Part shown: positions 10,861 through 35,040 of the stretch, one piece after another
Layout of the letters: each line of letters opens with the position of its first letter
Position numbering within the stretch: the first letter of the stretch is position 1
DNA from: Pseudomonas phage vB_PaeM_RyC23_M4LORT
Sequence record: PP781973.1
Strand: one strand, 5' to 3'
Length of the DNA: 64,000 nucleotides
The notes under the pieces: model-generated
The model's input: only the letters and a program-made list of their open reading frames with translations
Database searches by the model: none
What the model was told of the DNA's origin: nothing
Made by a program: the position numbers and the translations under genes

Positions 10861-10915
10861 TTTCGCGTTTCGATGAGGGAATATTACGCCCACCTGATCC
10901 AGAAGTAAAGCACTT
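10861..10915 (-). promoter_or_regulatory. Early sigma70-like promoter/leader cassette (TTTACT -35, 17 nt, TAATAT -10, leader CCTCATCGAAACGCGAAAC)
   Basis: Member of the repeated promoter family listed in the findings. Confidence 0.55.
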
Positions 10916-10922
10916 TTGTAAA

Positions 10923-11924
10923 TTACTTCACGAACATCTTCTTGGCCTTCTGATAAGACGAAGAAGTCATCAGGCGCTCGATGACGTCCATGTCCGAAAC
11001 CAGATCATCCAGAAGGACATTGCGCCAGGTAGCGAACCGGCCGAGCGAGAAGATGCCAGCCTCATGGGTGAGATTCCAGATCATGGATTCGCGCTCGTCG
11101 CGACCGAGCGGAATGATTTTGCCTTTGGTCTGGATGGTCGGCTCGCCATCTTCGATGAGCTGTTTCCTTCTGATGCCGAAGGCCGCGCAGACTTCATCCA
11201 GATCCCAGGCCGGATTCCATTCGATCTTTTTGATCTCACCATCTGCATTCTCCACGACACCATTCGCGATGGATTCCACGATCAAGGTATCGCCGGTGAT
11301 GGACGCACGAAATGTTCCGAAATCGGGACTGGGGAAATACACGGTCTGGAAGACGTCACAAGGGATGGAAAGCTTGTATCGACTCACGATGATGGAAGTG
11401 CCTTTACCGAAGGACGGGTCGATTCCCAGGTCCAGTCCTGCCGCAGCCAGGTTGGCGCGGAATGGCGCGGTGCTGATGACATTCACATGGTCATCTTGCC
11501 GGCGAATATACTGGAAGAAAGAGGCATCGAAAGGACGGCTCCAGGTGATACGGTTCGCGAGCTTAGCCACCAGCTGCTCATAGTAGTCGGCCGGTGCGAT
11601 CCAACGCTTTTCAGTCGCCAGATTCCAGATGGACCGGTCCGACAGGCCTCCTGTTACTTTCCGGGAGTACAGGTTGCAGTAGTCGATGCGCGGCTGGGAA
11701 ATCAGCTCGTCATCCATGTAGATGGCCTTGTGTACAGTGACTTCGCGGAACGGGATGCCGGTGAGTTGGCCAATTACTGGCGAGCGGAATCGCAAGAGTG
11801 CGTTGTGACGCTCCTTGTTCTCCGGCGTTGCCGCGTCGATGATTTGAGCTTGAGGAAAGCGATGCGCGGCGATCAGTCCGGCTAGCCCGGCGCCTACGAT
11901 GATGACTTTCTGATCAGGAATCAT
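10923..11924 (-). CDS. FAD/NAD(P)-binding Rossmann-fold oxidoreductase (function unknown)
   Basis: N-terminal dinucleotide-binding motif VIIVGAGLAGLIAA (GxGxxG); AAGGAA Shine-Dalgarno site 8 nt before the MIPDQK start; 333 aa. Confidence 0.65.
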   Translation of the reverse strand: MIPDQKVIIVGAGLAGLIAAHRFPQAQIIDAATPENKERHNALLRFRSPVIGQLTGIPFREVTVHKAIYMDDELISQPRIDYCNLYSRKVTGGLSDRSIWNLATEKRWIAPADYYEQLVAKLANRITWSRPFDASFFQYIRRQDDHVNVISTAPFRANLAAAGLDLGIDPSFGKGTSIIVSRYKLSIPCDVFQTVYFPSPDFGTFRASITGDTLIVESIANGVVENADGEIKKIEWNPAWDLDEVCAAFGIRRKQLIEDGEPTIQTKGKIIPLGRDERESMIWNLTHEAGIFSLGRFATWRNVLLDDLVSDMDVIERLMTSSSYQKAKKMFVK

Positions 11925-11960
11925 GATATGTTCCTTATGAGTGTACAAAACTTGAGAGGA

Positions 11961-11995
11961 TAAAAAAGGGACCCATTTTCATGAGTCCCTTGAAG
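11961..11995 (-). terminator. Rho-independent terminator (AAGGGAC..GTCCCTT stem followed by a T-tract on the minus strand)
   Basis: Hairpin followed by TTTTTTATCC on the transcribed strand. Confidence 0.5.
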
Positions 11996-12028
11996 AGCTA
12001 GACGATTCGGTCTCAGAAGAGCGGCGGC

Positions 12029-12919
12029 TTACTCTTCTTCACCATCGGAACCGTCGGCGCCCTGACCTTCACCGTCGTGCTCCTGGCCTTCATCGGCCTT
12101 CTCGTCATCGCCCTGGCCAGCTTCGTCTTCCTTCGAAGCGATGGCAACCAGATCGACCCAGCCCATGATTTCCAGCTTGCTCAGATAGCTGCGGACAGAG
12201 GTGCCATAGAGCAGATGGGCCACCTTCTCGCCGAAGGCTTCGATTTCGACCGGCTCACCAACGGTGCAGTGCTCGTTGATGTAAGCAAACACCTTGCCGC
12301 GAGTCGAGAAGGCCTGCGGGGTTCCATGGCCGTCGCCGGTCGGGATGAAGTGAGTGGCGCGGGGGCGACGCGAGCCGTTGGACTTCAGGTCTTCGCGGCG
12401 GGCTTCGGCCTTCGCGCGGCGCTCTTCCTGCTCTTCCTTGCGGCGCTGCTTCTCGGCTTCGCGCTCTGCCTTCTTCTGCTCGGCCAGGCGCTTGCGCTCT
12501 TCTTCGCGTGCGGCTTTCTGGGCTTCCTGCGCGGCCTTCTTCTCTTCGGCCTTCTTGGCGCGCTCGGCTTCCTTCTCGGCCTTCTTCTGCTCGCGCTCGG
12601 CTTCCTTCGCCTTCGCCTTCTCGGCCAGCTCGGCTTCCTTCGCCTTCGCCTTTTCAGCACGCTCGGCTTCCTTGGCGGCGGCCTTTTCCTTCGCCTTCTC
12701 GGCGCGCTCGGCTTCCTTCTTCTCGCGCTCGGCCTGGCGCTTCGCTTCTCGCTCGGCTTTCTTCTGCTCGGCTTCCTTGGCCTTGGCTTCGGCCTTCTCG
12801 GCGCGCTCGCGCTCTTTACGTTGACGCTCGGCGGCCTTCTCGGCTTTGCGCAGGGCTGCTGCTTGTTCCTTGGTCAGCTCTTCGCCTTGGGCCTGTTCGT
12901 TCTGGTCTTTCTGTTCCAT
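12029..12919 (-). CDS. Lys/Ala/Glu-repeat charged single-alpha-helix (ER/K-type) protein with a globular C-terminal domain and an acidic tail
   Basis: About 180 aa of AEKAKAKEAE / EREKKEAERAEKAKEK repeats; C-terminal domain ~80 aa; then D/E/G-rich tail; imperfect DNA repeats at 12380-12880. Confidence 0.55.
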   Translation of the reverse strand: MEQKDQNEQAQGEELTKEQAAALRKAEKAAERQRKERERAEKAEAKAKEAEQKKAEREAKRQAEREKKEAERAEKAKEKAAAKEAERAEKAKAKEAELAEKAKAKEAEREQKKAEKEAERAKKAEEKKAAQEAQKAAREEERKRLAEQKKAEREAEKQRRKEEQEERRAKAEARREDLKSNGSRRPRATHFIPTGDGHGTPQAFSTRGKVFAYINEHCTVGEPVEIEAFGEKVAHLLYGTSVRSYLSKLEIMGWVDLVAIASKEDEAGQGDDEKADEGQEHDGEGQGADGSDGEEE

Positions 12920-14676: not shown

Positions 14677-14770
14677 CTAATGTTCCTTTATAACGTACAG
14701 TTATGCTTTACCTCTGCGCAGGAAGAGTATACTATCAGCTGACTCGCCAAAGCGAGCGAATTTAATCCAA

Positions 14771-14800
14771 CTTTACTTCGGCAGGAAAGTGGCCGATACT
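14771..14800 (+). promoter_or_regulatory. Rightward sigma70-like promoter (CTTTACT -35, 17 nt, GATACT -10)
   Basis: Same -35 motif as the early-promoter family; followed by an AGAGGA Shine-Dalgarno site and the ATG at 14845. Confidence 0.45.
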
Positions 14801-14844
14801 AGCGCCGCCGCCTGTACTGCCCTCCAAAACAGAGGATACATTAA

Positions 14845-15630
14845 ATGCAAGAATGCAAGATTTCCCGCGACCAACTCCCGGTCGGTAATCCGAATCCCAA
14901 TGTCGACAAGACCCGCGACCCGAACCTGAAGCCCGGTTTCCTGCGTCGCAGCCGCGAGCTGGACCCGGCGCTGGCCGTTCGCATTCGTCGCGAGCTGATC
15001 CACGCCGAAGCGTCCGATCTGGCCAAGGCCGGATGGGTCAATTCACAGTCCAGCCTTTATGGATCGAAAGCCTTCCCGCGCCATTCCGTCGTTCGCGTGA
15101 CCGGAGTTCCGGAAGATGGAGCTTTCATCGGCATGCTGATCGGCTTCATCGAGCATCGCGAGCATGGCGAATGGGCGGTCATGGAAGCCGGAACGAAAGA
15201 AGGCGGCGCCGTCATTATTCCAGTCGATCACATCATGCGAGCGTCATTCGCCGAAGCCGAAGAGTTCGCCGAAAAGTGGGAGCGGAACTTGGGGTGGCGT
15301 CTCCTGCGCCAACTCCGCGAGTGCGGCGCCCTGGCCGGGACTGAAGACGAGTTCCTGCGGCGGATCATCAATCGATACGTTCGTGATCGCACGATCCTCG
15401 ATCACCACAAAGTCGGCGCGGACAAAACCTATACTGATGCAGTACTCAAAAGCATCGGCGAAACATGGCCGAAGATTCCTTCGGGGAAATTCGTCGGACA
15501 CCGAGTCGCGCAGCTCCTGATCGGCCACAAGCTAGGTCGAGCGGGGACCATCCTGAATGACCTGGTGGACTTCCTGGAGAAGTTCGCGGCCGGGCGCGAT
15601 AAAATTCTCAACATCGCCATCTGTAATTGA
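14845..15630 (+). CDS. Hypothetical protein (261 aa)
   Basis: ORF with a Shine-Dalgarno site; first gene of the rightward operon. Confidence 0.5.
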   Translation: MQECKISRDQLPVGNPNPNVDKTRDPNLKPGFLRRSRELDPALAVRIRRELIHAEASDLAKAGWVNSQSSLYGSKAFPRHSVVRVTGVPEDGAFIGMLIGFIEHREHGEWAVMEAGTKEGGAVIIPVDHIMRASFAEAEEFAEKWERNLGWRLLRQLRECGALAGTEDEFLRRIINRYVRDRTILDHHKVGADKTYTDAVLKSIGETWPKIPSGKFVGHRVAQLLIGHKLGRAGTILNDLVDFLEKFAAGRDKILNIAICN

Positions 15631-18869: not shown

Positions 18870-20609
18870 ATGATTATCGACGACGATAACATTCTTGATG
18901 ATGACGAATCGGGGTCCAGTGAGTTCGATCTCACACAGATAGAAGATGCTGGAATGGACCCTTTGATGACCGCCGCAAGTAAAGCGGCCGACGATGCGAT
19001 TGCGAGGAATGAGACTTACCGAGCGCAAAAGGCAGCAAAGTATGCAGAGGCGTATGCGGAACCAGATTTGAAGAAGCGAGCGCGATTGTTGATGCTCGAT
19101 CAGGCCTTTGATCTTCCGGTCAGCCGGCTGGTGAAAGGACCGTTCGACGACTTCATCACCAAGTACAGCTCGACTTCAGACAGCAACTACCTCGCGGTCT
19201 ATGATACGTTGTTCTGTAAGGGCGACGGAACTGTCCCACACCCGCACTTCGACGAGTTTCGCGGCCGGCTGGTGGACCACCGAGGCGTGGCGTTCAACAA
19301 CAAAACCCTCGATCCGATTGACCTGATGGGCGCCCTCGCGGCTGCGGCCTTGGACGATCCCTCGATTAAGAAGACGATTGAGACTTGCTGCGTTTGGGCG
19401 CGTCGATATCGCCGCAACTCGCTGATCGAGACGTTTGAGAAGAAGATACCGGATTGGGACGGCGAAGAGCGGATCGAAACGCTGCTGATCGACTTGTTCA
19501 AACCGTTCGACACCGAGCTTAACCGGATGGTGAGCAAGTATTTCTGGCTGAGCTTGTACTGCCGCATCAACTACCCTGGAATCTCGGCGCCGATCTCGTT
19601 GGCGTTGATTGGTGGGCAGGATGCGGGGAAATCATATTTCGGCTTGCTGATCTGTAAGGAACTGTCCGGTGGGCGCGATCTGGCTCCAGTTCAGCTCGAC
19701 CTGAGCCGACACGACCAGACGCCGTTCCTGCGCAACATCACCGGCAACTCGGTTATTGCGAACGTCGGCGAAATGTCCGGCTTCAAAAAGGGCGACATGG
19801 AACGCATCAAAGAATTCCTGGTGCGATCTTCGGATACATTCGATCAGAAATTCGAGCCTGGCGAAACGATCAAGCGACAATGGATCACCATCATGGACGG
19901 CAACGGATACGATGGACTCCAGCGGGACGACTCCGGCAACCGTCGATTCTATCCGATGTTCGTGGCACAACTTCCCGACGAAGATGGAAAGCCGAACTGG
20001 GTTAAGCCGGGCGATGGTAATGAACCGTTCAAGGTGGACTTCACCGACTTCGGTCGCAAATTCTGGCAAGCGATGGCTGAATGCCGCGCATGGATCGAAG
20101 AGCATGGTGTCGATGGATACCTGGATATGGTGTCGGAAGCGAACCGCGAAGTGCAGAAGTTCTCTATTTCGGAAATGGAGAATGCGCGTGGCGTGGTTCG
20201 TGATGACACGATTGATATGTATCTGATCAACGTGCTGATCAGTTGCGAGTTCGAAGAGATCAAGCCTGGCAGGAATTCAAAGAATCCTGGATGGAGAGTC
20301 AACACCATCGAAATCCTGAAATGGTTCGATGTTCTCGCCAGAAAGAAGCCGATTTCTCGCCACTTAACTCCGCACCTGAAGGCTCTGGGATTTGTTCCGA
20401 ATAAGAATGGCTTGAATGGATGGTGCCTGCCTGTAGATAAGGTTGCACCTGGATGGACCAGAGATATGCACACGACGTTGCCGCCGTTCAATGATGTGCT
20501 TGTATACTTGCTGAGGAAGGTGGATTCTGAGGTGACTGATGAAGAGGCAATGATTCAAATCCGCAAAGTTAAGGCCGAGCGCGCAAGGATATTGGGCGAG
20601 GATTTCTGA
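18870..20609 (+). CDS. VirE/D5-type primase-associated helicase (P-loop NTPase; P4 alpha C-terminal-like)
   Basis: P-loop ALIGGQDAGKSYF, RFYPMFV motif; 579 aa. Confidence 0.75.
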   Translation: MIIDDDNILDDDESGSSEFDLTQIEDAGMDPLMTAASKAADDAIARNETYRAQKAAKYAEAYAEPDLKKRARLLMLDQAFDLPVSRLVKGPFDDFITKYSSTSDSNYLAVYDTLFCKGDGTVPHPHFDEFRGRLVDHRGVAFNNKTLDPIDLMGALAAAALDDPSIKKTIETCCVWARRYRRNSLIETFEKKIPDWDGEERIETLLIDLFKPFDTELNRMVSKYFWLSLYCRINYPGISAPISLALIGGQDAGKSYFGLLICKELSGGRDLAPVQLDLSRHDQTPFLRNITGNSVIANVGEMSGFKKGDMERIKEFLVRSSDTFDQKFEPGETIKRQWITIMDGNGYDGLQRDDSGNRRFYPMFVAQLPDEDGKPNWVKPGDGNEPFKVDFTDFGRKFWQAMAECRAWIEEHGVDGYLDMVSEANREVQKFSISEMENARGVVRDDTIDMYLINVLISCEFEEIKPGRNSKNPGWRVNTIEILKWFDVLARKKPISRHLTPHLKALGFVPNKNGLNGWCLPVDKVAPGWTRDMHTTLPPFNDVLVYLLRKVDSEVTDEEAMIQIRKVKAERARILGEDF

Positions 20610-22307: not shown

Positions 22308-22922
22308 TTATTCGCCAGCTTCGATGATTTCGAAGTTGTATTTGACGCCTTCGTGCTCGAAAGTCATTTTGCCAGCCGCCTTCAGCTGCATGCGGAAGCG
22401 GATGTGTTTCGAAGAAGGCAGGCCGAACTCGATGAATGCTGCGTTGGTGGACCGGAACTCGCCGCGCTTGCCTTTGACAGTCACAGCCACGCCATGGCGC
22501 TGAGTGCGTTTCTTGGAAACTTCCGGGTCTTTCCAGGAGTTGGCGATGGCTGCCGACAGGTCTTTGGACTCTTTGGCTTTCTCCGGAGCGTTCTTGGCCT
22601 CTTCGCGCATCTTCCGGATTTCTTCCAGCGCTTCCTCTTCGGTGATCTCTTCTTCAGGCTTCAGATTCTCTTCCTCGGCCTTCTCTTCTTCCTTCTTCTT
22701 GGAAGTGCGGGTTTTGTAGACTTTGGCCGGGGCTTCCTCTTCCTGGAAGGCTTCTTCCTCGGCCGGCAGAGCATTCAGGATGGCGAGGCAGCGACGCTCA
22801 GCAGTCTTGCGGTCAGAGAAACGCTTGACAGTCGCATCGGCGTTGTGGGCGTTGTAGAAGGCGACCAGTTCTTTCATTTCTGCGTTCTGGATGTCGCCGA
22901 AGGTTTTGATGGAGTTGGTCAT
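22308..22922 (-). CDS. Hypothetical early protein (204 aa) with an acidic Glu/Lys central segment
   Basis: ORF downstream of an early promoter; conserved 5'UTR. Confidence 0.5.
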   Translation of the reverse strand: MTNSIKTFGDIQNAEMKELVAFYNAHNADATVKRFSDRKTAERRCLAILNALPAEEEAFQEEEAPAKVYKTRTSKKKEEEKAEEENLKPEEEITEEEALEEIRKMREEAKNAPEKAKESKDLSAAIANSWKDPEVSKKRTQRHGVAVTVKGKRGEFRSTNAAFIEFGLPSSKHIRFRMQLKAAGKMTFEHEGVKYNFEIIEAGE

Positions 22923-22940
22923 TTTGCGATCCTCTGTTTT

Positions 22941-23015
22941 GGAAGATTTCGTTCGGGCTTCGGTTTGTCGCCCCGTTGAAAGAGATTATGCCTAGGTCGA
23001 TGCTGCGTGTCTACA
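22941..23015 (-). promoter_or_regulatory. Early promoter (TAGACA -35, 17 nt, CATAAT -10) with a conserved leader and Shine-Dalgarno site
   Basis: Member of the repeated promoter family. Confidence 0.5.
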
Positions 23016-23111
23016 TTTATTTCATCAGATTGATCGCAAAGCCGACGAACGGTTGTCGGATGTGAAAACACCGCAGAGCAGGCTGCGGTGTTTGGTGGGC
23101 GAGGGCGATGG

Positions 23112-24482: not shown

Positions 24483-24707
24483 TTAACGTTTGTGAAGGAT
24501 GGACACTGCGTCCACGTCGAGGATGCTAATGGTACGGCGACGGCGCGGATTGCTGCGTTCATGGATGCGAATCAGGTTCGCAGCTGGAGCTTTGTCCACC
24601 ACCCATATATCTTCCGGCTTCTGCTTCCGGAGCAGGACCGTCACTTCTGCGTTCTGGGCGAGGCCGTTGCAGATGAACGTGAACTTGGACGAGGGAGTTC
24701 TGTACAT
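24483..24707 (-). CDS. Small hypothetical protein (74 aa)
   Basis: ORF downstream of the promoter at 24758-24786. Confidence 0.4.
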   Translation of the reverse strand: MYRTPSSKFTFICNGLAQNAEVTVLLRKQKPEDIWVVDKAPAANLIRIHERSNPRRRRTISILDVDAVSILHKR

Positions 24708-24757
24708 GTCGAGATTCCTTTTTGGACTTCGGGTCCGGCTTTTCAGTCGGTGAAGAG

Positions 24758-24786
24758 ATTATGCCTGATCATCACCGTCGAGTAAA
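24758..24786 (-). promoter_or_regulatory. Early promoter (TTTACT -35, 17 nt, CATAAT -10)
   Basis: Member of the promoter family (plus-strand consensus GAAGAGATTATGCC...GAGTAAAGCAC). Confidence 0.5.
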
Positions 24787-25098
24787 GCACTTATGGACCA
24801 ATTCTCCAGTTAAATGGAACCACAGCGCGGTATCGCTGATCGCTACGCTTCCGCGCCATGGCCCTTCTTGCTCACAGACTTCGAACCACAAGCTGATTTC
24901 CATCCTTGCCAGGACTCGGCCGAAGGATTCGAGCCGGCGCCGACTGGACAGGATGTCGACATTCACTCGTCGATTGACCTCGTACCGGCGACCGTTGATG
25001 GCGAAGACCAGCCGCAGGGTTTGTCCGTCAAGACACTCCCAGTATCTGGTTTCACACCGAAGCCAATAGCGCTTGCCAGCCGGGCCTACCATGGTCAT
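24772..25098 (-). CDS. Hypothetical protein (109 aa)
   Basis: Start MTMVGP lies 2 nt after the upstream gene's stop; overlaps the promoter at 24758-24786, which weakens the call. Confidence 0.3.
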   Translation of the reverse strand: MTMVGPAGKRYWLRCETRYWECLDGQTLRLVFAINGRRYEVNRRVNVDILSSRRRLESFGRVLARMEISLWFEVCEQEGPWRGSVAISDTALWFHLTGELVHKCFTRR

Positions 25099-26394: not shown

Positions 26395-26642
26395 TTGACG
26401 TACTTCCCGAAATAGGAGGTGTGGAGGATTTCGCGACCTTTGGTGATGGCCTTGAGCTTGATTCCGAAATTCTTGATCGCCCAGTCCAGATCGTGGTGAT
26501 AGAACTCGATGATGTTGACGATTTGACCGGCGCTGTAGTGGATGACGCGAACCTTGCCGTTCCAGCGGAAGTCTTCGCGGCTGTTTACGGCCTCGACTGC
26601 GATGGTGTCGTTTCTGCCGATGGTCCATTTTGAGCTAGTCAT
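26391..26642 (-). CDS. Small hypothetical protein (83 aa)
   Basis: ORF downstream of a promoter cassette; AAGAGGA Shine-Dalgarno site. Confidence 0.5.
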   Translation of the reverse strand: MTSSKWTIGRNDTIAVEAVNSREDFRWNGKVRVIHYSAGQIVNIIEFYHHDLDWAIKNFGIKLKAITKGREILHTSYFGKYVK

Positions 26643-26664
26643 GTCGCAATCCTCTTTTTGGAGT

Positions 26665-26720
26665 GTTTCGCGTTTCGATGAGGTAACTATACCTCAGTCA
26701 CATCATCGAGTAAAGCACTT
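26665..26720 (-). promoter_or_regulatory. Early promoter/leader cassette (TTTACT -35, 17 nt, TATAGT -10, leader CTCATCGAAACGCGAAACAC)
   Basis: Best match to the family consensus. Confidence 0.6.
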
Positions 26721-26754
26721 TTGAACAGATTGTCTAAAATTTCTGGAAGACAAA

Positions 26755-26967
26755 TCAATCGGCCGCGTCATCGATAGCGAACGCCGATCGCGCCAGGTCG
26801 ATGATCTCTGGCCATGTCAAAGTAAAGGTTTTGCCGTCATCACGAATGATAATTGGAGTCTGCAGCGGCTCGCCCACCAGCATTGTGTAGGTATGTTTCT
26901 CGCCGGATGCGGAGCCGATGCGGGTGCTTAAGGTGAGCGGGGATTCTTTGTGTACGGTGCCGATCAT
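26755..26967 (-). CDS. Small hypothetical protein (70 aa)
   Basis: ORF. Confidence 0.4.
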   Translation of the reverse strand: MIGTVHKESPLTLSTRIGSASGEKHTYTMLVGEPLQTPIIIRDDGKTFTLTWPEIIDLARSAFAIDDAAD

Positions 26968-27010
26968 TGTTTCGTTCCTCGGTAATACCCGGAGAATCGG
27001 GCGCGTTGGA

Positions 27011-27241
27011 TTAGGCTTTGCCGCGACGGATTGTTACGCCGCATTCAGTAGTCACTTCCTTAGCGGCAGGATCGCGAACAAGATAAGCACAGGCGGCTTT
27101 GACATTCAAAGCTCGGGTTGCGCCGAGTTTGCAGGAAAGATCATTCCCCTCTTCGTCCCACAGATGGGCAATGCGAGAGATACAGCCCTTTTCTACTTCA
27201 GCTTCTACAGTTACGGACTGGTCAATGTTAAATACCGGCAT
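27011..27241 (-). CDS. Small Cys-containing hypothetical protein (76 aa)
   Basis: Start MPVFNID with a GGAGAG Shine-Dalgarno site; downstream of the promoter at 27260-27312. Confidence 0.45.
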   Translation of the reverse strand: MPVFNIDQSVTVEAEVEKGCISRIAHLWDEEGNDLSCKLGATRALNVKAACAYLVRDPAAKEVTTECGVTIRRGKA

Positions 27242-27259
27242 CGCTTTCTCTCCGAGATT

Positions 27260-27312
27260 GTTCCGTTTCAATGAGGTGACTATACCTCAGCAACCTCATT
27301 GAGTAAAGCATT
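27260..27312 (-). promoter_or_regulatory. Early promoter/leader cassette (TTTACT -35, 17 nt, TATAGT -10)
   Basis: Family member. Confidence 0.55.
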
Positions 27313-27321
27313 TTCTTCAGA

Positions 27322-27510
27322 TTATCTGAAACCTTTTGAAGCCAGGAATTGTCGCCAGAGCCAGTCAACGTGATCGTTGAGGTAGCGCTCGCCATCGGAA
27401 GACAGAGCCAGGCAGCCATCCTTTATGCCGAGCTTGGAGCCTGCAATCCATTCGAATTCGAACTGGAGCGTTCCGGGCCTAGGGATATGGGACATGGCGT
27501 ATTTCTGCAC
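27322..27510 (-). CDS. Small hypothetical protein (62 aa)
   Basis: ORF. Confidence 0.35.
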   Translation of the reverse strand: MQKYAMSHIPRPGTLQFEFEWIAGSKLGIKDGCLALSSDGERYLNDHVDWLWRQFLASKGFR

Positions 27511-28569: not shown

Positions 28570-28716
28570 TTATTTGGCGAGTTTGTACTGAGCTTTGAGG
28601 GTGGTCAGCTTAGCTTTCAGGGCGATCATAGCCTGGCCGCGCAGGCCTTCCATTTCTGCCTCGCTGATGGCGATCTTGGCGGAGCGGATTTGATCGTTGA
28701 TCTGGGATTTGGTCAT
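28570..28716 (-). CDS. Small protein (48 aa) MTKSQINDQIRSAKIAISEAEMEGLRGQAMIALKAKLTTLKAQYKLAK
   Basis: Not in the ORF track (shorter than 60 aa); AGAGGA Shine-Dalgarno site; downstream of the promoter cassette at 28741-28796. Confidence 0.35.
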   Translation of the reverse strand: MTKSQINDQIRSAKIAISEAEMEGLRGQAMIALKAKLTTLKAQYKLAK

Positions 28717-28740
28717 TTCTGCGTTCCTCTGTTTTGGAGT

Positions 28741-28796
28741 GTTTCGCGTTCGATGAAGAGATTATGACGCTATTCAGAATGGAAGTAAAGCAGAAT
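28741..28796 (-). promoter_or_regulatory. Early promoter/leader cassette (TTTACT -35, 17 nt, CATAAT -10)
   Basis: Family member; the flanking sequence cagaatggaagtaaag is shared with the cassettes at 29060 and 32826. Confidence 0.55.
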
Positions 28797-28882
28797 TGTG
28801 AAATATTTCTCAAAGTGGACGAACGGTATGCCCCGTCAGGAATATTTCCTCCCATGGAAGGCATTTCCGCATCCGAATGTTG

Positions 28883-29042
28883 ATTAGGTATCCCAAAGCG
28901 CGCAGTGGCGAATGTGAGTCCGCACGTACATAGGGTTGTATTGTGCGAAGTGCTCGACGGTCGCATCCAAGGCTCTGCTATTGCCGCACCCTTCCGCTTT
29001 GCGAGCCAGGAAGAATGCTTCTATTTGCTGGTTTGCGTTCAT
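28883..29042 (-). CDS. Small protein (52 aa) MNANQQIEAFFLARKAEGCGNSRALDATVEHFAQYNPMYVRTHIRHCALWDT
   Basis: GGAGGG Shine-Dalgarno site; downstream of the promoter at 29060-29116. Confidence 0.35.
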
Positions 29043-29059
29043 CGTCTTACCCTCCAGGT

Positions 29060-29116
29060 GTTTGTTCGTTTCGATGAAGAGATTATGCCGTTGGTCAGAA
29101 TGGAAGTAAAGTGTAT
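29060..29116 (-). promoter_or_regulatory. Early promoter/leader cassette (TTTACT -35, 17 nt, CATAAT -10)
   Basis: Family member. Confidence 0.55.
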
Positions 29117-29149
29117 TAACAATAAAATTATGTTCACCGACGAACGGTT

Positions 29150-30595
29150 GTGCTCGACCGTCTGTTGCGGCGTCGATATACTCGACCTATTGCTGACACC
29201 GGATTGATTAGAATGTACAAACTCAACCCTGCACTGCGAGCGGTCTGGCGAACTCGCGCCCGTTACAAAGTCATTTATGGCGGCCGGGCGTCTTCGAAGT
29301 CACACGACGCAGGCGGTATCGCCGTTTACCTCGCGGCCAACTATAGACTCAAGTTCCTCTGTGCTCGCCAGTTTCAGAACCGCATCAGCGAATCGGTCTA
29401 CACGTTGATCAAGGACAAGATTGAGAATTCTGAGTACAACGGCGAGTTCATTTTCACGAAGAACTCGATCAAGCACAAGATGACCGGATCAGAATTCCTA
29501 TTCTATGGGATCGCCCGTAACCTGTCGGAAATCAAGTCTACCGAAGGCATCGACATTCTCTGGCTTGAGGAAGCTCACTACCTGACCCAGGAGCAGTGGG
29601 AAGTCATCGAGCCGACCATCCGGAAAGAGAACTCAGAAATCTGGATCATCTTCAATCCGAACGAAGTGACAGACTTCGTGTATCAGAACTTCGTGGTGAA
29701 GCCACCCAAAGACGCCTTCGTCAAGATGATCAACTGGAACGAAAATCCGTTTCTCAGTGAGACGATGCTCAAGGTCATCCACGAAGCTTATGAGCGCGAC
29801 AAGGACCAGGCCGAGCACATTTATGGCGGGATTCCGAAGACTGGTGGCGACAAATCCGTCATCAATCTCAAGTTCATTCTTGCGGCCATCGACGCCCACA
29901 AGAAACTCGGCTGGGAGCCGGCCGGATCGAAGCGCATCGGCTTCGACGTTGCGGACGACGGCGAGGATGCGAACGCAACTACGCTCATGCACGGCAACGT
30001 CATTATGGAAGTGGACGAATGGGACGGCCTGGAAGATGAACTGCTCAAGTCGTCCAGCCGCGTTTACAACCTGGCGAAGATGAAAGGCGCCTCGGTCACT
30101 TATGACTCCATCGGTGTCGGCGCTCACGTCGGATCGAAGTTCGCCGAGTTGAACGATGCCAGTCCCGACTTCAAACTGATCTATGATCCATTCAACGCGG
30201 GCGGCGCTGTCGATAAGCCTGATGATATCTACATGAAGCTGCCGCACACGACGATCAAGAACAAAGACCACTTCAGCAACATCAAGGCGCAGAAGTGGGA
30301 AGAAGTCGCGACCCGATTCCGGAAGACTTATGAAGCGGTTGAGCATGGAAAGGTTTATCCCTTCGACGAATTGATTTCGATCAACTCTGAAACGATTCAC
30401 CCGGACAAACTAAATCAACTGTGTATCGAACTTTCGTCGCCGCGCAAAGACCTGGACATGAACGGCCGGTTCAAAGTCGAGTCCAAGAAGGATATGCGCG
30501 AGAAACGCAAGATCAAGTCGCCGAACATCGCTGACTCGGTGATTATGTCGGCCATTCTGCCGATCCGGAAGCCCAAAGGTTTCTTCGACTTCTAA
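29150..30595 (+). CDS. terL: Terminase large subunit (PBSX/XtmB-type); start uncertain between 29150 and 29212
   Basis: Walker A YGGRASSKSH, Walker B ILWLEEAH, C-terminal RNase H-like nuclease (IGFDVADDGED...). Confidence 0.85.
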   Translation: MLDRLLRRRYTRPIADTGLIRMYKLNPALRAVWRTRARYKVIYGGRASSKSHDAGGIAVYLAANYRLKFLCARQFQNRISESVYTLIKDKIENSEYNGEFIFTKNSIKHKMTGSEFLFYGIARNLSEIKSTEGIDILWLEEAHYLTQEQWEVIEPTIRKENSEIWIIFNPNEVTDFVYQNFVVKPPKDAFVKMINWNENPFLSETMLKVIHEAYERDKDQAEHIYGGIPKTGGDKSVINLKFILAAIDAHKKLGWEPAGSKRIGFDVADDGEDANATTLMHGNVIMEVDEWDGLEDELLKSSSRVYNLAKMKGASVTYDSIGVGAHVGSKFAELNDASPDFKLIYDPFNAGGAVDKPDDIYMKLPHTTIKNKDHFSNIKAQKWEEVATRFRKTYEAVEHGKVYPFDELISINSETIHPDKLNQLCIELSSPRKDLDMNGRFKVESKKDMREKRKIKSPNIADSVIMSAILPIRKPKGFFDF

Positions 30596-32021: not shown

Positions 32022-32023
32022 GG

Positions 32024-32803
32024 TTAATCCTCCACCGACCGAATGATTTCCATGTTGCGACCGGCATTGGCCCCGGCAGTGTAGGCGCGCCGACCGTCAC
32101 TGTCGTCCAGACGCAGGAGTTTGGTAACATTCGACTTCTTGTAACCCGGATCGCCGAAATGTTCGTGGACCGCAGCTTCCTTAACCACCACCAGAGACGT
32201 TCCGGCAGAAGATACCAGCTCCATACGCTTCCTGGTTATGGACTGAAGGCGATAGCTGATTTCCTGGGTCGCGGCCAGTTTGAATTGCGCGGCAACCTTT
32301 ACGTTGAAACGTTCGTACCCTTGCGCCTTCTGATACTCCCGACACAGACGATCAATGGCCTCGACCAGGGAGTTGAACATGTTCACCGCCAGCTCAACGT
32401 CCGACTTGTAGCCTTTGAAGCGTACGGCATGACCCCAGCGCTTGGTAGTGCTTCCGTCGCGGGCGCTCCTGGATGCCTTAGCCGATGCTCTGTGGTTGTT
32501 GATGCCACCGGCGAAATCCATGATGCAGTCATTGTACGTCGCCACGGCCACTGAGAAAAACTTCATCCAGTTCGGGATTGCGGAATAGTAACGAGTGGCA
32601 ATTTGCTCATCGAACTCTTCGCGAATCTCGCCGGTAGCTTCGAAGTCGTGAAGGTCATATTTGTCCTTCAACTTCTTCACACGCTCGGCTGCGATGGCCG
32701 CTTCGTGCGGACTGGAAGAGTCGGCTGCCATGGCGGTCAGTTTGCGGATGCGGTCTTTCGCCTTCTCGATGGCTTCAGGGGTGAATTCGTTCTGGTCGGT
32801 CAT
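32024..32803 (-). CDS. DUF2786-like hypothetical protein (259 aa)
   Basis: N-terminal IRKLTAMAADSSSPHEAAIAAERVKKL resembles the DUF2786 motif. Confidence 0.5.
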   Translation of the reverse strand: MTDQNEFTPEAIEKAKDRIRKLTAMAADSSSPHEAAIAAERVKKLKDKYDLHDFEATGEIREEFDEQIATRYYSAIPNWMKFFSVAVATYNDCIMDFAGGINNHRASAKASRSARDGSTTKRWGHAVRFKGYKSDVELAVNMFNSLVEAIDRLCREYQKAQGYERFNVKVAAQFKLAATQEISYRLQSITRKRMELVSSAGTSLVVVKEAAVHEHFGDPGYKKSNVTKLLRLDDSDGRRAYTAGANAGRNMEIIRSVED

Positions 32804-32825
32804 GGTCGGTTCCTTTTGTCTGAAG

Positions 32826-32882
32826 GGTTTCGCATTTCAATGGAGCTATTCTGCCTTCATTCAGAATGGAAGTAAAGCACTT
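32826..32882 (-). promoter_or_regulatory. Early promoter/leader cassette (TTTACT -35, 17 nt, CAGAAT -10)
   Basis: Family member. Confidence 0.5.
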
Positions 32883-32889
32883 TCTTCCA

Positions 32890-33327
32890 CTATTTCGGCA
32901 TCGACTGGAAGAAATTCCAGATCCAATCACCTGCTACCAGCAAGAGGATGAGGGCGGCAAAGAACAAGACAGCGGCCGCGAGCTGTGCGCCCGGCTTCAG
33001 TTTGGGATGGCTGAGCTTGGGCTCTACGGGAACGGCCGGAGCGCTAGCGCTGCAACCGGCGTCTCCTGGGCCGTAGCCGATGCCGCGTTCACACGCCTGG
33101 AACGACACCAGGGATTTAAGATACTCGGTCTGCTTTTGCGACTCTTCGTAGATGCCGGCGACGGCGAACCAGAGGGCGAACACTACTGACGTACACACAA
33201 CCCAGGCGCCGGTCAGCAGGAGGGCCAGCGGGCCGATGACGAAGACGGTAGCAGCCAGGACGATTGCGCCGCCCCAGATGATGAAGCCGGCCAGACCATT
33301 AGTGATGTCGACACAGAACTTTTTCAT
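32890..33327 (-). CDS. Polytopic membrane protein (3-4 transmembrane helices; holin- or superinfection-exclusion-like)
   Basis: Start MKKFCVD; multiple hydrophobic helices. Confidence 0.45.
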   Translation of the reverse strand: MKKFCVDITNGLAGFIIWGGAIVLAATVFVIGPLALLLTGAWVVCTSVVFALWFAVAGIYEESQKQTEYLKSLVSFQACERGIGYGPGDAGCSASAPAVPVEPKLSHPKLKPGAQLAAAVLFFAALILLLVAGDWIWNFFQSMPK

Positions 33328-33343
33328 TTTCAGATTCCTTCGG

Positions 33344-33931
33344 TTACGGGATGGAGGGGATTTGAAACTCTGCGCCGCCGAGAACATCAATGACGACTTC
33401 CCAGAGCGTCGGAACAGACCACTGGTAACGGTCGAAGTCGGTTTCAGGATCGACGCCCAGCGTCACATAGGAAGTGGCAGGCCATTTATGAACACTGCCT
33501 TTCCGCATGAGAGTCGCCACGCGGCCGTCACCGAGCGGATTCGTCCTGTGCGGAACGTACGCAGACATCGAATATTGCTGCCCGGCGTCGATAACAAATC
33601 TTTGCCTCTGGCGCAGACATACAGAGCCCACAGGATTCCAGCCGCGACCGCCGCAAGCCTGGCGAGCCGAAGAATGCTCATAACCTTCGTGAGTCATTTC
33701 GCCGAGGCAAGCCGAGCGATCCTCGTAATAGTTGATGTTCTCCATCGATCCAACCAGCACCAGAGACTCGAAATCGAATCGATGATCGTGGATGGCCGAG
33801 TGATTGAAGCAAAGCCGACGCGGCAGCTCCGGGTGCCAAACATGGAGGCGACCGGCCGGAAGTTGGACCTGAATGAACCCCAGGCCGTGCAGAGTGATCT
33901 TGTCCTTCATCGGGTCATGGACGGTGCTCAT
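33344..33931 (-). CDS. Hypothetical protein with a His-rich cupin/2OG-oxygenase-like motif (HSAIHDHRFD)
   Basis: 195 aa; HxxHDH plus a later His suggest a metal-binding site. Weak call. Confidence 0.4.
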   Translation of the reverse strand: MSTVHDPMKDKITLHGLGFIQVQLPAGRLHVWHPELPRRLCFNHSAIHDHRFDFESLVLVGSMENINYYEDRSACLGEMTHEGYEHSSARQACGGRGWNPVGSVCLRQRQRFVIDAGQQYSMSAYVPHRTNPLGDGRVATLMRKGSVHKWPATSYVTLGVDPETDFDRYQWSVPTLWEVVIDVLGGAEFQIPSIP

Positions 33932-34032
33932 GGATAATCCTCAGTAGCAGAAATGTATTGTGAGAGTTACGATTGATAAGCCGGTCGCCCATAGAAGGGC
34001 GAACCAGGCCATGGCTTTGATGGTCGTGTAGA

Positions 34033-34965
34033 TCATCCGAAGAATTTTCCGGCACAGATCGGGCCAATGCCCATTTCGATGGATGCGTGGTTGGTCAACT
34101 CGCGACCGCAGCAGGAGCACTGACCAGTCTTCCGACCGTAGGCGACTGCCGATTCCATCGGCTTTTCGAACATCTTCAGAACGTCGTCGTGCTCAGTATC
34201 GGTGCAGTCGCGACTCTTGATGAATTTGCCATTGGTGATCCGGCCGAGGTAGATGTCGCCCAGGACGTACAGGCTACCGGCGTTCCGGCTGTGAGCGCTA
34301 GCCTCTTTCACAACAACGATGAGCGGCTCCTCGCCTTCGCCAGCTAGGCGGATTTTCGGGCGCTTGATACCAGACTCTTTCGCCTTCTCAAACGCTTTCT
34401 CGATGCAGGAAATGTCCAGAGTCGGCGCAGCAGCTTCCTGCGCGGCCACTTTCTCGCGATACTTGGCGAGGTTTTCGATGGCGCGCTTCGCAGCAGCGAT
34501 CTGATTTTCCGTCAAGGAGCCGTATTTATACAACGACTCCTGAAGGCTCTGAGCGAAGCTGAAGGAATTTCCAGTCCACCACTCGATGATATCCGGGTGC
34601 GCGGCTTCGAAAGCCTTAATTTTGAGGTCGCGTTCTTGCGCAGCGCTACAGATTTTCTCGGCGCGCTTTTCTGCCGCCTTGGCACGGCTCTTGGCGCGCT
34701 GCTCCGGGCTGGTTTTGTACTCTTTGTATCCGACACCGCCGCAGGCAAAGCAGGCGCGACCATAAGATGAAGGGCCACGGTACAGGCCGGTGCCTGCGCA
34801 TTTGGTGCACTTGTCGCGATACAGCTTCACTTCCTTCCGGGAGTTCGGGCGGGCGCCCATGGACACATCTTCCAGCGTCTTCGGAGCTTCGTCAGTGATC
34901 GCTACGGTAGCGAAGTCATCGCCCAGGTCTTCGAAGCCGGTGAACAGATTCTCTGCTGCGTTCAT
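34033..34965 (-). CDS. Zinc-ribbon protein with a C-terminal DUF6011-like motif
   Basis: CTKCAGTG...CFACGGVG and the C-terminal CSCCGRELTNHASIEMGIGPICAGKF. Confidence 0.5.
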   Translation of the reverse strand: MNAAENLFTGFEDLGDDFATVAITDEAPKTLEDVSMGARPNSRKEVKLYRDKCTKCAGTGLYRGPSSYGRACFACGGVGYKEYKTSPEQRAKSRAKAAEKRAEKICSAAQERDLKIKAFEAAHPDIIEWWTGNSFSFAQSLQESLYKYGSLTENQIAAAKRAIENLAKYREKVAAQEAAAPTLDISCIEKAFEKAKESGIKRPKIRLAGEGEEPLIVVVKEASAHSRNAGSLYVLGDIYLGRITNGKFIKSRDCTDTEHDDVLKMFEKPMESAVAYGRKTGQCSCCGRELTNHASIEMGIGPICAGKFFG

Positions 34966-34989
34966 GTCGATTCTCCTGTTTGGAAAGTT

Positions 34990-35040
34990 CGTTTCGATGA
35001 GTTGACTATACGCCAGAAATGGAAAAACGGTAGCGTTTTC
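34990..35040 (-). promoter_or_regulatory. Early promoter-like cassette (TATAGT -10, leader CTCATCGAAACGAAC); -35 poorly matched
   Basis: Partial family member. Confidence 0.35.

What the first reader, a model, noticed from the sequence alone, without database searches (positions are those of the whole stretch)
10861..35040. Family of at least 10 near-identical sigma70-like early promoter/leader cassettes on the minus strand
Consensus on the transcribed strand: GTGCTTTACT - 17 nt - TATAGT or CATAAT - (A)CCTCATCGAAACGCGAAACAC(TCCAAAAACAGAGGA) - ATG. Copies, by plus-strand coordinate: 1120-1156, 10861-10915, 22941-23015, 24758-24786, 26665-26720, 27260-27312, 28741-28796, 29060-29116, 32826-32882, 34990-35040; a plus-strand version sits at 14771-14800. 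The -35 and -10 fit host sigma70. The invariant transcribed leader CTCATCGAAACGCGAAAC and the conserved Shine-Dalgarno context are not needed for promoter function, so they suggest a shared post-transcriptional or repressor-operator element controlling the whole early regulon. The cassettes subdivide the early region into many 1-4-gene units.
Basis: seen in the sequence. Interest (0 to 1): 0.55.

Follow-up and report, generated by a model that had tools for sequence, protein, structure and literature searches.

The report
Recombining early promoter-leader cassettes, Pbunavirus
These repeats are the host-type early promoters of a PB1-like Pseudomonas phage, whose start sites were already mapped in a sister phage; each comes with a shared leader and ribosome-binding site as a portable cassette, and related phages have swapped or lost small genes by recombining between cassettes.

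Summary
The window is a Pbunavirus (PB1-like) Pseudomonas aeruginosa phage, 95-97% identical to Epa22/BrSP1 and collinear with phage 14-1. All eleven listed sites exist. The -35 octamer GCTTTACT occurs 9 times against 0.87 expected.

"Near-identical" and "invariant leader" are overstated. Only 7 cassettes share the leader, at 61-78% pairwise identity, and the 18-mer is exact in 2. Three promoters were missed (-35 at 36565 and 36996, minus strand; 14705, plus strand).

Published ONT-cappable-seq of 14-1 places a start site at the orthologue of every cassette that has one. It is the A of TCA|TCGA, 7 nt after the -10, except at the 24788 orthologue, called 16 nt after the -10. So the promoters are already known.

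Three things are new here:
- **Leader constraint.** The leader diverges 2.3-fold less than synonymous sites across 13 genomes. It is unstructured and A/C-rich.
- **Hairpin sub-family.** One sub-family carries a 10-bp inverted repeat around the -10.
- **Recombination.** Six cassettes in relatives are clean two-parent hybrids, with crossovers in the -35, the spacer/-10 or the leader, each time losing or swapping small genes.

This resembles the PeSL cassettes of T4-type phages. No test supports an operator or an RNA regulatory element, and none excludes a trans-acting factor.

The parts
26640..26752 (-). Cassette c26716 (TATAGT sub-family, 'A-type'), driving the gp88 homologue. A/T-rich upstream tract; -35 GCTTTACT 26709-26716; -10 TATAGT 26686-26691; TSS 26679; leader AUCGAAACGCGAAACACUCCAAAAAGAGGAUUGCGAC; ATG 26642. 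Inverted-repeat arms at 26699-26708 and 26676-26685.
   Evidence: The 14-1 orthologue is P049, TSS 65240. The RNA hairpin folds at -16.3 kcal/mol, z -2.4.
27239..27345 (-). Cassette c27309 (A-type), driving a 76-aa ORF at 27011-27241. -35 27302-27309; -10 27279-27284; predicted TSS 27272; ATG 27241. Inverted repeat CAATGAGGTT / CACCTCATTG at 27292-27301 and 27269-27278. Together with c26716 it brackets a 2-gene module (26755-27241) that BrSP1, PA8P1 and 14-1 lack.
   Evidence: Hairpin -18.3 kcal/mol, z -3.6. 14-1 has no orthologue.
28714..28830 (-). Cassette c28791 (CATAAT sub-family, 'B-type'), driving the gp02 homologue. -35 28784-28791; -10 CATAAT 28761-28766; TSS 28754; ATG 28716. Spacer TCCATTCTGA is shared with c29112 and c32878.
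   Evidence: phiKT28 annotates a MEME-predicted promoter at the same locus. The 14-1 promoter at this locus is P001, GFP-validated. Homology breakpoints at 28790-28827.
29040..29150 (-). Cassette c29112 (B-type), driving a 52-aa ORF at 28884-29042. -35 ACTTTACT 29105-29112; -10 29082-29087; predicted TSS 29075; ATG 29042. Its upstream part overlaps the divergent terminase promoter.
   Evidence: At this position different phages carry different genes behind the same cassette. Breakpoints at 29034-29067.
32801..32910 (-). Cassette c32878, driving the gp08 homologue (DUF2786). -35 32871-32878; -10 CAGAAT 32848-32853; TSS 32841; ATG 32803.
   Evidence: 14-1 P006, TSS 4479. Annotated as a promoter in phiKT28.
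34963..35052 (-). Cassette c34990, driving the gp12 homologue (DUF6011; 14-1 gp12 is reported to bind the RNA polymerase alpha subunit). Terminator hairpin 35025-35052, whose T-tail replaces the -35; -10 TATAGT 35005-35010; TSS 34998; ATG 34965. This is the only clear terminator-promoter composite.
   Evidence: 14-1 P009 (TSS 6637) lies 24 nt downstream of the mapped termination site T004 at 6661.
10833..10945 (-). Cassette c10911, heading the gp65-to-gp59 operon in the DNA-metabolism region. -35 10904-10911; -10 TAATAT 10881-10886; TSS 10874; ATG 10835. Its 18-nt leader block is identical to that of c26716.
   Evidence: 14-1 P028, TSS 49234, 7-gene transcription unit.
24705..24820 (-). Promoter c24788, driving the gp82 homologue. 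It has the family -35 (24781-24788) and -10 CATAAT (24758-24763), but a different 50-nt leader containing a small GNRA-loop hairpin. ATG 24707.
   Evidence: 14-1 P048: the mapped 5' end is 16 nt after the -10.
22920..23045 (-). Promoter c22941, driving the gp77 homologue. -35 TAGACA 23008-23013; -10 CATAAT 22985-22990; TSS 22978. The 62-nt leader is different and shares only the block TCCAAAACAGAGGA with the family. ATG 22922.
   Evidence: 14-1 P043, TSS 61300.
1077..1157 (-). Promoter c1157, driving the gp52 homologue. -35 GCTTTACT 1150-1157; 16-nt spacer; -10 TATTAT 1128-1133; TSS 1121. The leader is unrelated.
   Evidence: 14-1 P024, TSS 39481.
36503..36565 (-).
   Evidence: 14-1 P010, TSS 8684.
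36936..36996 (-).
   Evidence: 14-1 P012, TSS 9116.
14705..14847 (+). Two tandem plus-strand promoters for the gp70 homologue. First: GCTTTACC, 15-nt spacer, TATACT (14705-14733). Second: ACTTTACT, 17-nt spacer, GATACT (14770-14800). The leader ends in CCTCCAAAACAGAGGA; ATG 14845.
   Evidence: 14-1 P037 and P038; P038 is GFP-validated.

Best explanation
These repeats are the host-RNA-polymerase (sigma70) promoters that drive the minus-strand early and DNA-metabolism genes of a Pbunavirus.

**Anatomy.** Each promoter sits inside a cassette of about 110-140 nt with these parts, in order:
- an A/T-rich tract ending in AAAAGT, which looks like an UP element;
- the -35 box GCTTTACT, a 17-nt spacer and a -10 box (TATAGT, CATAAT or similar);
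- a C/T-rich discriminator;
- a start site at the A of TCA|TCGA;
- in seven cassettes, a 31-38-nt A/C-rich, U-poor, unstructured 5'UTR (AUCGAAACGCGAAAC...);
- a strong Shine-Dalgarno block (CCAAAA(C)AGAGGA or CAAAAGGAA), then the ATG.

**Shown.** The motifs and their excess over chance are shown here. The start sites and factor-independent activity are shown by published work on the orthologues in 14-1. Reduced divergence of the leader is shown here. Hybrid cassettes in relatives have clean switches between two parents inside the -35, the spacer/-10 or the leader, and each switch goes with loss or replacement of 1-2 small genes.

**Inferred.** The cassettes are paralogous expression modules, each a promoter plus a translation-optimised leader and ribosome-binding site, that give every small early gene block strong independent expression. 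Their mutual similarity beyond the promoter boxes is kept by selection on the start-site region and the translation-initiation region, and by recombination between cassettes. That recombination makes them the joints at which accessory early genes are inserted, deleted and exchanged, as with the PeSL cassettes of T4-type phages. In this reading the leader is not a dedicated operator or riboregulator.
For: - **Identity of the genome.** The window is 95-97% identical to Pbunavirus genomes and collinear with 14-1.
- **Excess over chance.** GCTTTACT occurs 9 times against 0.87 expected. Every cassette abuts a gene start.
- **Published start sites.** TSSs are mapped at all twelve orthologous positions in 14-1, at the A of TCA|TCGA except P048, called 16 nt after the -10.
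- **Published activity.** P001 and P038 are active in E. coli and P. aeruginosa reporters. The P001 fragment ended at +1, so the leader is dispensable for transcription.
- **Divergence across 13 genomes.** -35 0.020; -10 0.023; discriminator 0.020; +1..+15 0.043; mid-leader 0.047; Shine-Dalgarno zone 0.041; spacer 0.080; third codon positions 0.100.
- **Leader properties.** Leaders are 37-45% A and 8-31% U (at most 13% in 9 of 12). Mean folding energy is -5.9 kcal/mol, against -11.4 for random genomic segments and -5.1 for shuffles of their own composition.
- **Shine-Dalgarno block elsewhere.** The same block occurs at a junction where no promoter was detected (25743-25772) and on the plus strand at 14830.
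- **Breakpoints.** Homology breaks between this phage and 11 relatives cluster at cassettes: 7 of 22 clusters fall in 8.3% of the sequence, permutation p = 0.002.
- **Hybrid cassettes.** BrSP1 switches parent at the -35; 14-1 between spacer and -10; PA8P1, R26, 14-1 P001 and E215 within the leader.
- **Gene turnover.** At least five different genes follow the B-type cassette at the locus next to the terminase gene in different phages.
- **Precedent.** PeSLs are described with the same parts list (A/T-rich tract, TTTACW-N17-TAYWAT promoter, Shine-Dalgarno and start codon) and the same association with indels.
Against: - No experiment on this phage exists; the TSS and reporter evidence comes from a relative about 96% identical.
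- A leader that only needed to be unstructured would not have to keep specific bases. Yet c10911 and c26716, which are 16 kb apart and have different spacers, share an identical 18-mer. Some sequence-specific constraint, or recent gene conversion, is therefore needed, and the two cannot be told apart here.
- The breakpoint enrichment is much weaker against a null restricted to gene junctions: about 5 of 9 junction-level breakpoints against roughly 30% of junctions carrying a cassette.
- Most cassettes lack the upstream terminator stem-loop that defines a PeSL.
- The methyltransferase indel at 35065-35073 lies beside a cassette, not inside it.
Confidence: 0.7

Rival explanations
1. The shared 5' leader (AUCGAAACGCGAAAC... 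plus the A-rich Shine-Dalgarno context) would be the recognition site for a trans-acting phage or host factor, such as an RNA-binding translational repressor, an endoribonuclease or Hfq/Crc. That factor would switch off, or time, the whole set of early mRNAs after transcription, as T4 RegA and RegB do for T4 early messages.
For: The leader is not needed for transcription, since P001 without it is strong. It nevertheless evolves 2.3-fold more slowly than synonymous sites. Seven cassettes with three different spacer types share it, so it is more conserved between sub-families than the spacer is. It is single-stranded and A-rich, and so accessible to such proteins.
Against: The leader tolerates 1-nt indels and substitutions in the GAAACGCGAAAC block, and its length varies from 31 to 38 nt. 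Five other promoters of the same block of genes lack it entirely, so it cannot control the whole regulon. No Rfam family matches and there is no conserved structure. None of 20 early proteins has a recognisable RNA-binding or nuclease domain. The same degree of constraint is expected for any efficient translation-initiation region.
Confidence: 0.15
2. The block from about -5 to +20 would be an operator overlapping the start site, bound by a phage repressor that shuts off early transcription. In the TATAGT sub-family it would include the 10-bp inverted repeat CGATGAGGTG-N13-CACCTCATCG.
For: The position overlaps the start site, as classical operators do. The TATAGT sub-family has a dyad: 94% of cells are paired across 18 distinct sequences, and the arms change together (G:C to A:T at two positions).
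Against: The dyad exists only in the TATAGT sub-family, which has 2 of about 13 cassettes in the window. The CATAAT-type cassettes and the others have none. Arms that change together indicate base-pairing or template-switch correction rather than a fixed protein half-site. G-T intermediates fit an RNA hairpin on the sense strand. No helix-turn-helix or other DNA-binding domain was found in 20 early proteins. 14-1 carries a hybrid cassette with mismatched arms and still has a mapped TSS there.
Confidence: 0.07
3. The leader has no function of its own. Its similarity among cassettes would be purely historical, arising from recent duplication and gene conversion or hitch-hiking with the promoter, with recombination as a by-product.
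For: Spacers, which normally carry no sequence-specific function, are also shared within sub-families (TCCATTCTGA; CGATGAGGTGACTGAGG), which shows common descent. Crossovers inside cassettes demonstrably move leader segments between loci.
Against: Between orthologues the spacer diverges at 0.080, close to the 0.100 of third codon positions. The leader diverges at 0.043-0.047 and the confidence intervals do not overlap those of third positions. That argues for purifying selection on the leader itself.
Confidence: 0.08

Closest known systems
Mapped sigma70-like promoters of Pseudomonas phage 14-1 (Putzeys et al. 2024, Microlife 5:uqae002; bioRxiv 10.1101/2023.10.13.562163, Table S3)
   Same: These are the same elements in a genome about 96% identical. 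Twelve of the window's promoters are orthologues of P001, P006, P009, P010, P012, P024, P028, P037, P038, P043, P048 and P049. The -35 and -10 boxes are the same and the TSS falls at the A of TCA|TCGA, except P048, called 16 nt after the -10. P001 and P038 are reporter-validated. MEME-predicted promoters are also annotated at two of these loci in the phiKT28 GenBank record.
   Different: That study analysed only -50..+1. The word 'leader' does not occur in it. It does not describe the shared transcribed leader, the sub-families, the inverted repeat or recombination between cassettes. Two window cassettes (c27309, c29112) have no 14-1 counterpart.
PeSL (promoter-early stem-loop) mobile regulatory cassettes of T4-type phages (Arbiol et al. 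2010, PMC2839356; Comeau et al. 2014, PMC4122927)
   Same: Both are dispersed, conserved composite cassettes made of an A/T-rich tract, a sigma70-like early promoter, a Shine-Dalgarno sequence and a start codon. The PST/T4 consensus TTTACW-N17-TAYWAT is almost the consensus found here. Both concentrate in the plastic early region in front of small genes of unknown function. Both lie next to insertions, deletions and replacements between close relatives, and recombination between neighbouring cassettes is inferred to delete or swap the genes in between.
   Different: A PeSL is defined by a terminator stem-loop just upstream of the promoter. Here only the gp12 cassette has one (35025-35052). The TATAGT sub-family has a hairpin around the -10 instead, and the CATAAT-type cassettes have none. 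The phage genus, host and GC content (55%) are different. Mini-circles have not been looked for. The conserved transcribed leader is longer and more specific than described for PeSLs.
Intergenic repeats that carry promoters in other viruses, e.g. halovirus HF2 (PMC8707807)
   Same: These are dispersed intergenic repeats that turned out to be promoters placed in front of gene blocks (from the abstract only).
   Different: The transcription machinery is archaeal. No shared leader or recombination role was compared here.
T4 RegB and RegA control of early mRNAs (from general knowledge, not tested here)
   Different: No RegA- or RegB-like protein or cleavage motif was identified here, and the shared element covers only 7 of about 13 promoters.

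Membership tests
Bacterial sigma70-dependent promoter | A -35-like and a -10-like hexamer separated by 16-18 nt | tested here: met
   TTTACT, 16-18 nt (17 in most), then TATAGT, CATAAT, TAATAT, CAGAAT or TAGACT at 11 sites. c34990 and c22941 have weaker -35 boxes.
Bacterial sigma70-dependent promoter | Transcription starts about 7 nt downstream of the -10 | not testable with these tools
   Not measurable on this genome. Published ONT-cappable-seq on 14-1 orthologues places the TSS 7 nt after the -10 at 10 of 12 sites; P048 is 16 nt after it and P037 about 9 nt.
Bacterial sigma70-dependent promoter | Activity with host RNA polymerase alone, without phage factors | not testable with these tools
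   Published GFP reporters show 14-1 P001 and P038 active in E. coli and P. aeruginosa. The other members are untested.
PeSL-type mobile regulatory cassette | Composite of an A/T-rich tract, a sigma70-like early promoter, a Shine-Dalgarno sequence and a start codon, repeated many times in the plastic early region | tested here: met
   The consensus is aaAA.tgCTTTACT-N17-tAtAaT-ctccTCATCGAaacg...aaAAaaGga....ATG, from 60 distinct cassettes in 13 genomes. The window has 10 in 22-37 kb.
PeSL-type mobile regulatory cassette | A stem-loop or terminator immediately upstream of the promoter | tested here: not met
   Only 35025-35052 qualifies (it corresponds to 14-1 T004). The TATAGT sub-family has a hairpin spanning the -10 with no U-tract. 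The CATAAT-type and other cassettes fold no better than shuffles.
PeSL-type mobile regulatory cassette | Indels and replacements between close relatives lie at the cassettes, and recombinant (hybrid) cassettes exist | tested here: met
   7 of 22 breakpoint clusters fall in 8.3% of the sequence, p = 0.002. Six hybrid cassettes show clean switches between parents. Against a null restricted to gene junctions the enrichment is only modest.
PeSL-type mobile regulatory cassette | Excision of mini-circles between neighbouring cassettes | not testable with these tools
   This needs PCR or deep sequencing of phage DNA.
cis-regulatory leader RNA (riboswitch, attenuator or thermometer) | A conserved secondary structure supported by covariation, or a match to a known RNA family | tested here: not met
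   There are no Rfam hits at gathering score. Leaders fold at -5.9 kcal/mol on average, no better than shuffles of their own composition (-5.1) and far weaker than random genomic segments (-11.4).
Repressor operator | Dyad-symmetric or repeated site overlapping the promoter in all regulated members | tested here: not met
   A 10-bp inverted repeat is present only in the TATAGT sub-family. The other cassettes lack dyad symmetry.
Repressor operator | A cognate DNA-binding protein encoded by the phage | tested here: inconclusive
   No helix-turn-helix or other nucleic-acid-binding Pfam domain was found in 20 early proteins. Most are unannotatable and about 15 small ORFs were not scanned.

The most novel reading that the evidence does not exclude
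The conserved start-site and leader block (TCA|UCGAAACGCGAAAC) would be a specific recognition element for a still unidentified Pbunavirus or host factor that co-ordinately times or silences a sub-regulon of seven early transcription units. The hairpin around the -10 in the TATAGT sub-family would distinguish read-through transcripts from transcripts started at the cassette's own promoter. In that case the cassettes would be both a regulatory code and a recombination scaffold.
Probability: 0.15. Interest if true: 0.6.

Novelty: new member of a known kind. Interest (0 to 1): 0.3.

Why it matters
Pbunaviruses are among the phages most used in therapy against P. aeruginosa, and their early regions are full of small genes of unknown function that differ between isolates. 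The promoters themselves are already published. Two points go beyond the published 14-1 study, and two literature searches turned up no description of them for this genus. First, each promoter comes as a portable unit with a leader and ribosome-binding site. Second, isolates differ by crossovers inside these units. Together these give a simple mechanism for turnover of accessory genes, and predict where engineered or natural deletions will arise. The cassettes are also ready-made strong expression modules for Pseudomonas synthetic biology. If the leader turned out to be a regulatory target, it would give a handle on the early-to-middle switch, which is not understood in this genus.

Tried and rejected
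1. **Anti-Shine-Dalgarno hairpin.** By eye, short pyrimidine runs (CCTT..AAGG, CTC..GAG, TCTC..GAGA) seemed to covary with the Shine-Dalgarno sequence. Folding the predicted transcripts showed no stability beyond shuffles of the same composition, so I dropped the idea.
2. **A hairpin around the -10 as a general cassette feature.** Only the two TATAGT cassettes fold significantly. The CATAAT-type and the others do not.
3. **Generic sigma70 consensus scan.** The region is not enriched for TTGACA/TATAAT matches overall (10 found against 7.2 expected). The signal lies in the family-specific octamer.
4. **Known RNA families and tRNAs.** None were found.
5. **IMG/VR relatives through the gp08 protein.** This returned only 6 loci. 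I used GenBank phage records instead.
6. **Spread of the cassette outside the genus.** BLAST of one cassette found it only in Pbunavirus records, apart from a 31-nt chance-level match in an E. coli phage.
7. **Regulator candidates.** Pfam scans of 20 early proteins found only DUF6011, DUF2786 and DUF7168 above their cut-offs.
8. **Ceyssens et al. 2009.** This comparative paper on PB1-like phages could not be read, so I could not check whether it mentions these repeats.
9. **Methyltransferase indel at 35065-35073.** It lies beside the gp12 cassette and not within it, so I do not count it as cassette-mediated.

Full report
**What the window is.** The 14-kb stretch that holds most of the finding matches 302 phage records, almost all Pseudomonas Pbunavirus (PB1-like) genomes, at up to 97% identity. 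The whole window is collinear with phage 14-1 (NC_011703), starting at 14-1 position 38361. The minus-strand genes between about 22.3 and 37 kb are homologues of 14-1 gp17 down to gp01 and gp90 down to gp77. These are the small, mostly unannotated early genes, and the terminase gene sits among them on the opposite strand.

**Checking the observation.**
- The -35 octamer GCTTTACT occurs 9 times against 0.87 expected. None of 100 shuffles reaches 9. Eight of the nine are followed at 16-18 nt by a -10-like hexamer.
- An unbiased repeat search recovers the cassettes as families D7, D9, D10, D16 and D20.

The description is too strong in two respects.
- The 'invariant' 18-mer is exact at only two sites, and nothing else lies within three mismatches.
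- Pairwise identity over about 90 nt is 61-78% for a core of seven cassettes: c10911, c26716, c27309, c28791, c29112, c32878 and c34990. The background for random segments is 53 +/- 4%. The other promoters are indistinguishable from background outside the boxes.

Two further promoters of the same -35 family were missed, with -35 at 36558-65 and at 36989-96, as was a plus-strand one at 14705.

**These are known, experimentally mapped promoters.** Putzeys et al. mapped 50 start sites in 14-1 by ONT-cappable-seq and classed 26 of them as sigma70-like. Their Table S3, held with the preprint, lists the 50 nt upstream of each start. Every window cassette with a 14-1 orthologue corresponds to a mapped start:

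| Window cassette | 14-1 promoter |
|---|---|
| c1157 | P024 |
| c10911 | P028 |
| c14705 | P037 |
| c14770 | P038 |
| c22941 | P043 |
| c24788 | P048 (start called 16 nt after the -10) |
| c26716 | P049 |
| gp02 locus | P001 |
| c32878 | P006 |
| c34990 | P009 |
| c36565 | P010 |
| c36996 | P012 |

- The start is the A of TCA|TCGA, 7 nt after the -10.
- P001 and P038 drive GFP in E. coli and P. aeruginosa without phage proteins, and P001 is among the strongest.
- The published transcription units from these promoters hold 1-5 genes, and 7 for P028.
- The phiKT28 GenBank record already annotates MEME-predicted promoters at two of the loci.

The promoter part of the finding is correct and already known.

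**Is the leader special?** The P001 reporter fragment ended at +1 and was fused to a standard ribosome-binding site. Other active sigma70 promoters of 14-1 lack the block.

I aligned each window cassette with its orthologues in 12 other Pbunavirus genomes and measured mean pairwise differences per site:

| Region | Differences per site |
|---|---|
| -35 | 0.020 |
| -10 | 0.023 |
| 6-nt discriminator | 0.020 |
| +1..+15 | 0.043 |
| mid-leader | 0.047 |
| last 14 nt (Shine-Dalgarno zone) | 0.041 |
| spacer | 0.080 |
| upstream A/T tract | 0.093 |
| third codon positions | 0.100 |
| first and second codon positions | 0.02 |

- The leader evolves about 2.3-fold more slowly than synonymous sites, and the bootstrap intervals do not overlap. 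It is not invariant, because substitutions and single-base indels occur.
- The most conserved part, ..CTCATCGA, spans -6 to +5. That is the discriminator and start site, which belong to the promoter proper.
- From the mapped start to 15 nt past the start of the ATG, the transcripts are 37-45% A and 8-31% U (at most 13% in 9 of 12). They fold at -5.9 kcal/mol on average. Random genomic segments of the same length fold at -11.4, and shuffles of the leaders' own composition at -5.1. So there is no conserved structure.
- No Rfam family matches.
- The Shine-Dalgarno block CCAAAACxGAGGA also occurs at a gene junction where no promoter was detected (25743-25772) and in the plus-strand cassette. It is a preferred ribosome-binding context of this phage, not a promoter-linked signal.
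- None of 20 early proteins has a recognisable DNA- or RNA-binding domain.

**Sub-families and an inverted repeat.** The spacers fall into types: TCCATTCTGA... with CATAAT or CAGAAT, and CGATGAGGTGACTGAGG with TATAGT.

In the TATAGT type, the first 10 nt of the spacer are the reverse complement of the 10 nt that follow the -10.
- Across 18 distinct sequences, 94% of cells pair.
- Two positions show changes on both sides (G:C to A:T), with G-T intermediates.
- No shuffle out of 500 reaches the observed covariation score.
- As RNA, which could exist only in transcripts reading through from upstream, the two window copies fold at -18.3 kcal/mol (z -3.6) and -16.3 kcal/mol (z -2.4). The other cassettes show nothing comparable.

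This hairpin is real but confined to 2 of about 13 cassettes. Its role is unknown. It could be a processing site or a stabiliser, or it could be a product of template-switch correction of a quasi-palindrome.

**Recombination at the cassettes.** Alignment of the window's early region with 11 other genomes breaks repeatedly at 26752-71, 27264-68, 28790-28827, 29034-67 and 35065-73, all at or next to cassettes. It also breaks at three cassette-free junctions and inside gp78 and gp90. Seven of 22 breakpoint clusters fall in the 8.3% of sequence occupied by cassettes, permutation p = 0.002. Against a null restricted to gene junctions the enrichment is only modest.

The direct evidence is the hybrid cassettes. 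Where the window has gp89 - c27309 - two genes - c26716 - gp88, three relatives have a single cassette at that position:
- **BrSP1.** It matches c27309 up to the -35 and c26716 from the spacer onward.
- **PA8P1.** It matches c27309 through +5 and c26716 from the GAAACG block onward.
- **14-1.** Its single cassette (P049) matches the upstream cassette of Ab27/R26 through the spacer, and the downstream one from the -10.

At the locus next to the terminase gene:
- The R26 and 14-1 (P001) cassettes match Ab27's upstream cassette through +12 and its downstream cassette from about +19.
- The E215 cassette switches parent inside the leader.
- At least five unrelated small genes follow this cassette in different phages.

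So crossovers have occurred in the -35, the spacer/-10 and the leader, each time removing or swapping a 1-2-gene module. The cassette sequence is confined to Pbunavirus records.

**Comparison with what is known.** The promoters are those of Putzeys et al. 2024. The architecture and behaviour match the PeSL cassettes of T4-type phages: an A/T-rich tract, an early promoter with consensus TTTACW-N17-TAYWAT, a Shine-Dalgarno sequence and a start codon, clustering in plastic regions, and inferred recombination between cassettes.

The defining upstream terminator stem-loop is present at only one cassette. That is 35025-35052, which corresponds to the mapped 14-1 terminator T004, 24 nt upstream of the P009 start. 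I therefore do not file the cassettes as PeSLs. I say they work like them.

The 14-1 study does not mention the shared leader, and two literature searches turned up no description of cassette-mediated recombination in Pbunavirus. The 2009 comparative paper could not be read.

**Verdict.** The family is real and its members are functional early promoters, already mapped in a sister phage. The shared leader is moderately constrained. It is best explained as the start-site region plus a translation-optimised 5'UTR, inherited and homogenised as part of a portable cassette that also serves as a recombination joint. A dedicated operator or RNA regulator is not supported by any test, but it is not excluded. 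Interest is modest.

Noticed in passing
window 61826-61979: A perfect 77-nt tandem duplication (61826-61902 and 61903-61979) lies inside the homologue of the 14-1 tail protein gene gp45. 77 is not a multiple of 3, and the gene is split into ORFs 59668-61914 and 61890-62633. 14-1 has a single copy. This is either an assembly artefact or a real frameshifting duplication in a tail protein gene.
   Followed up: partly
window 21041-21124 and 40881-40964: An 84-nt dispersed repeat (82% identical) lies in two long non-coding gaps. The first copy contains the orthologue of 14-1 promoter P040 (TSS 59399) and about 50 transcribed nt, within a ~960-nt ORF-poor region at 20600-21560. It may be a non-coding RNA or a shared regulatory leader. 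There is no Rfam match.
   Followed up: partly
window 12400-12870: Dense 33-nt-period coding repeats on the minus strand within the 12029-12919 ORF (gp67 position by the offset). They dominate the repeat output (families D1-D8).
   Followed up: no
window 24165-24188: A perfect 9-bp-stem hairpin scores as a terminator on both strands, between the gp79 and gp80 homologues. It corresponds to the mapped 14-1 termination site T014 at 62469.
   Followed up: partly
window 29120-29182 (both strands): The plus-strand terminase promoter (orthologue of 14-1 P002; TCGACC-N17-TATACT) is back-to-back with cassette c29112. Part of its sequence (ACCGTTCGTCGG) is duplicated upstream of other CATAAT-type cassettes (28830 and 23040 regions), so the duplicated unit extends to about -75.
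   Followed up: partly
L001/L002 (14-1) and the corresponding window positions: The 14-1 TSS table lists 11 further starts with a CTGGG motif about 5 nt upstream. Two were tested (P011, P032) and were inactive in reporters. Many lie inside the same early genes, giving a second, phage-factor-dependent promoter class interleaved with the cassettes.
   Followed up: no
window 24716-24752 (minus strand): The c24788 leader carries a small hairpin with a GNRA loop: CCGGCU-GAGA-AGCCGG in most relatives, CCGACU-GAAA-AGCCGG here. G-U and mismatch variants occur between phages. The 14-1 5' end for this promoter (P048) maps inside it, 16 nt after the -10, which suggests processing or a mapping offset.
   Followed up: no
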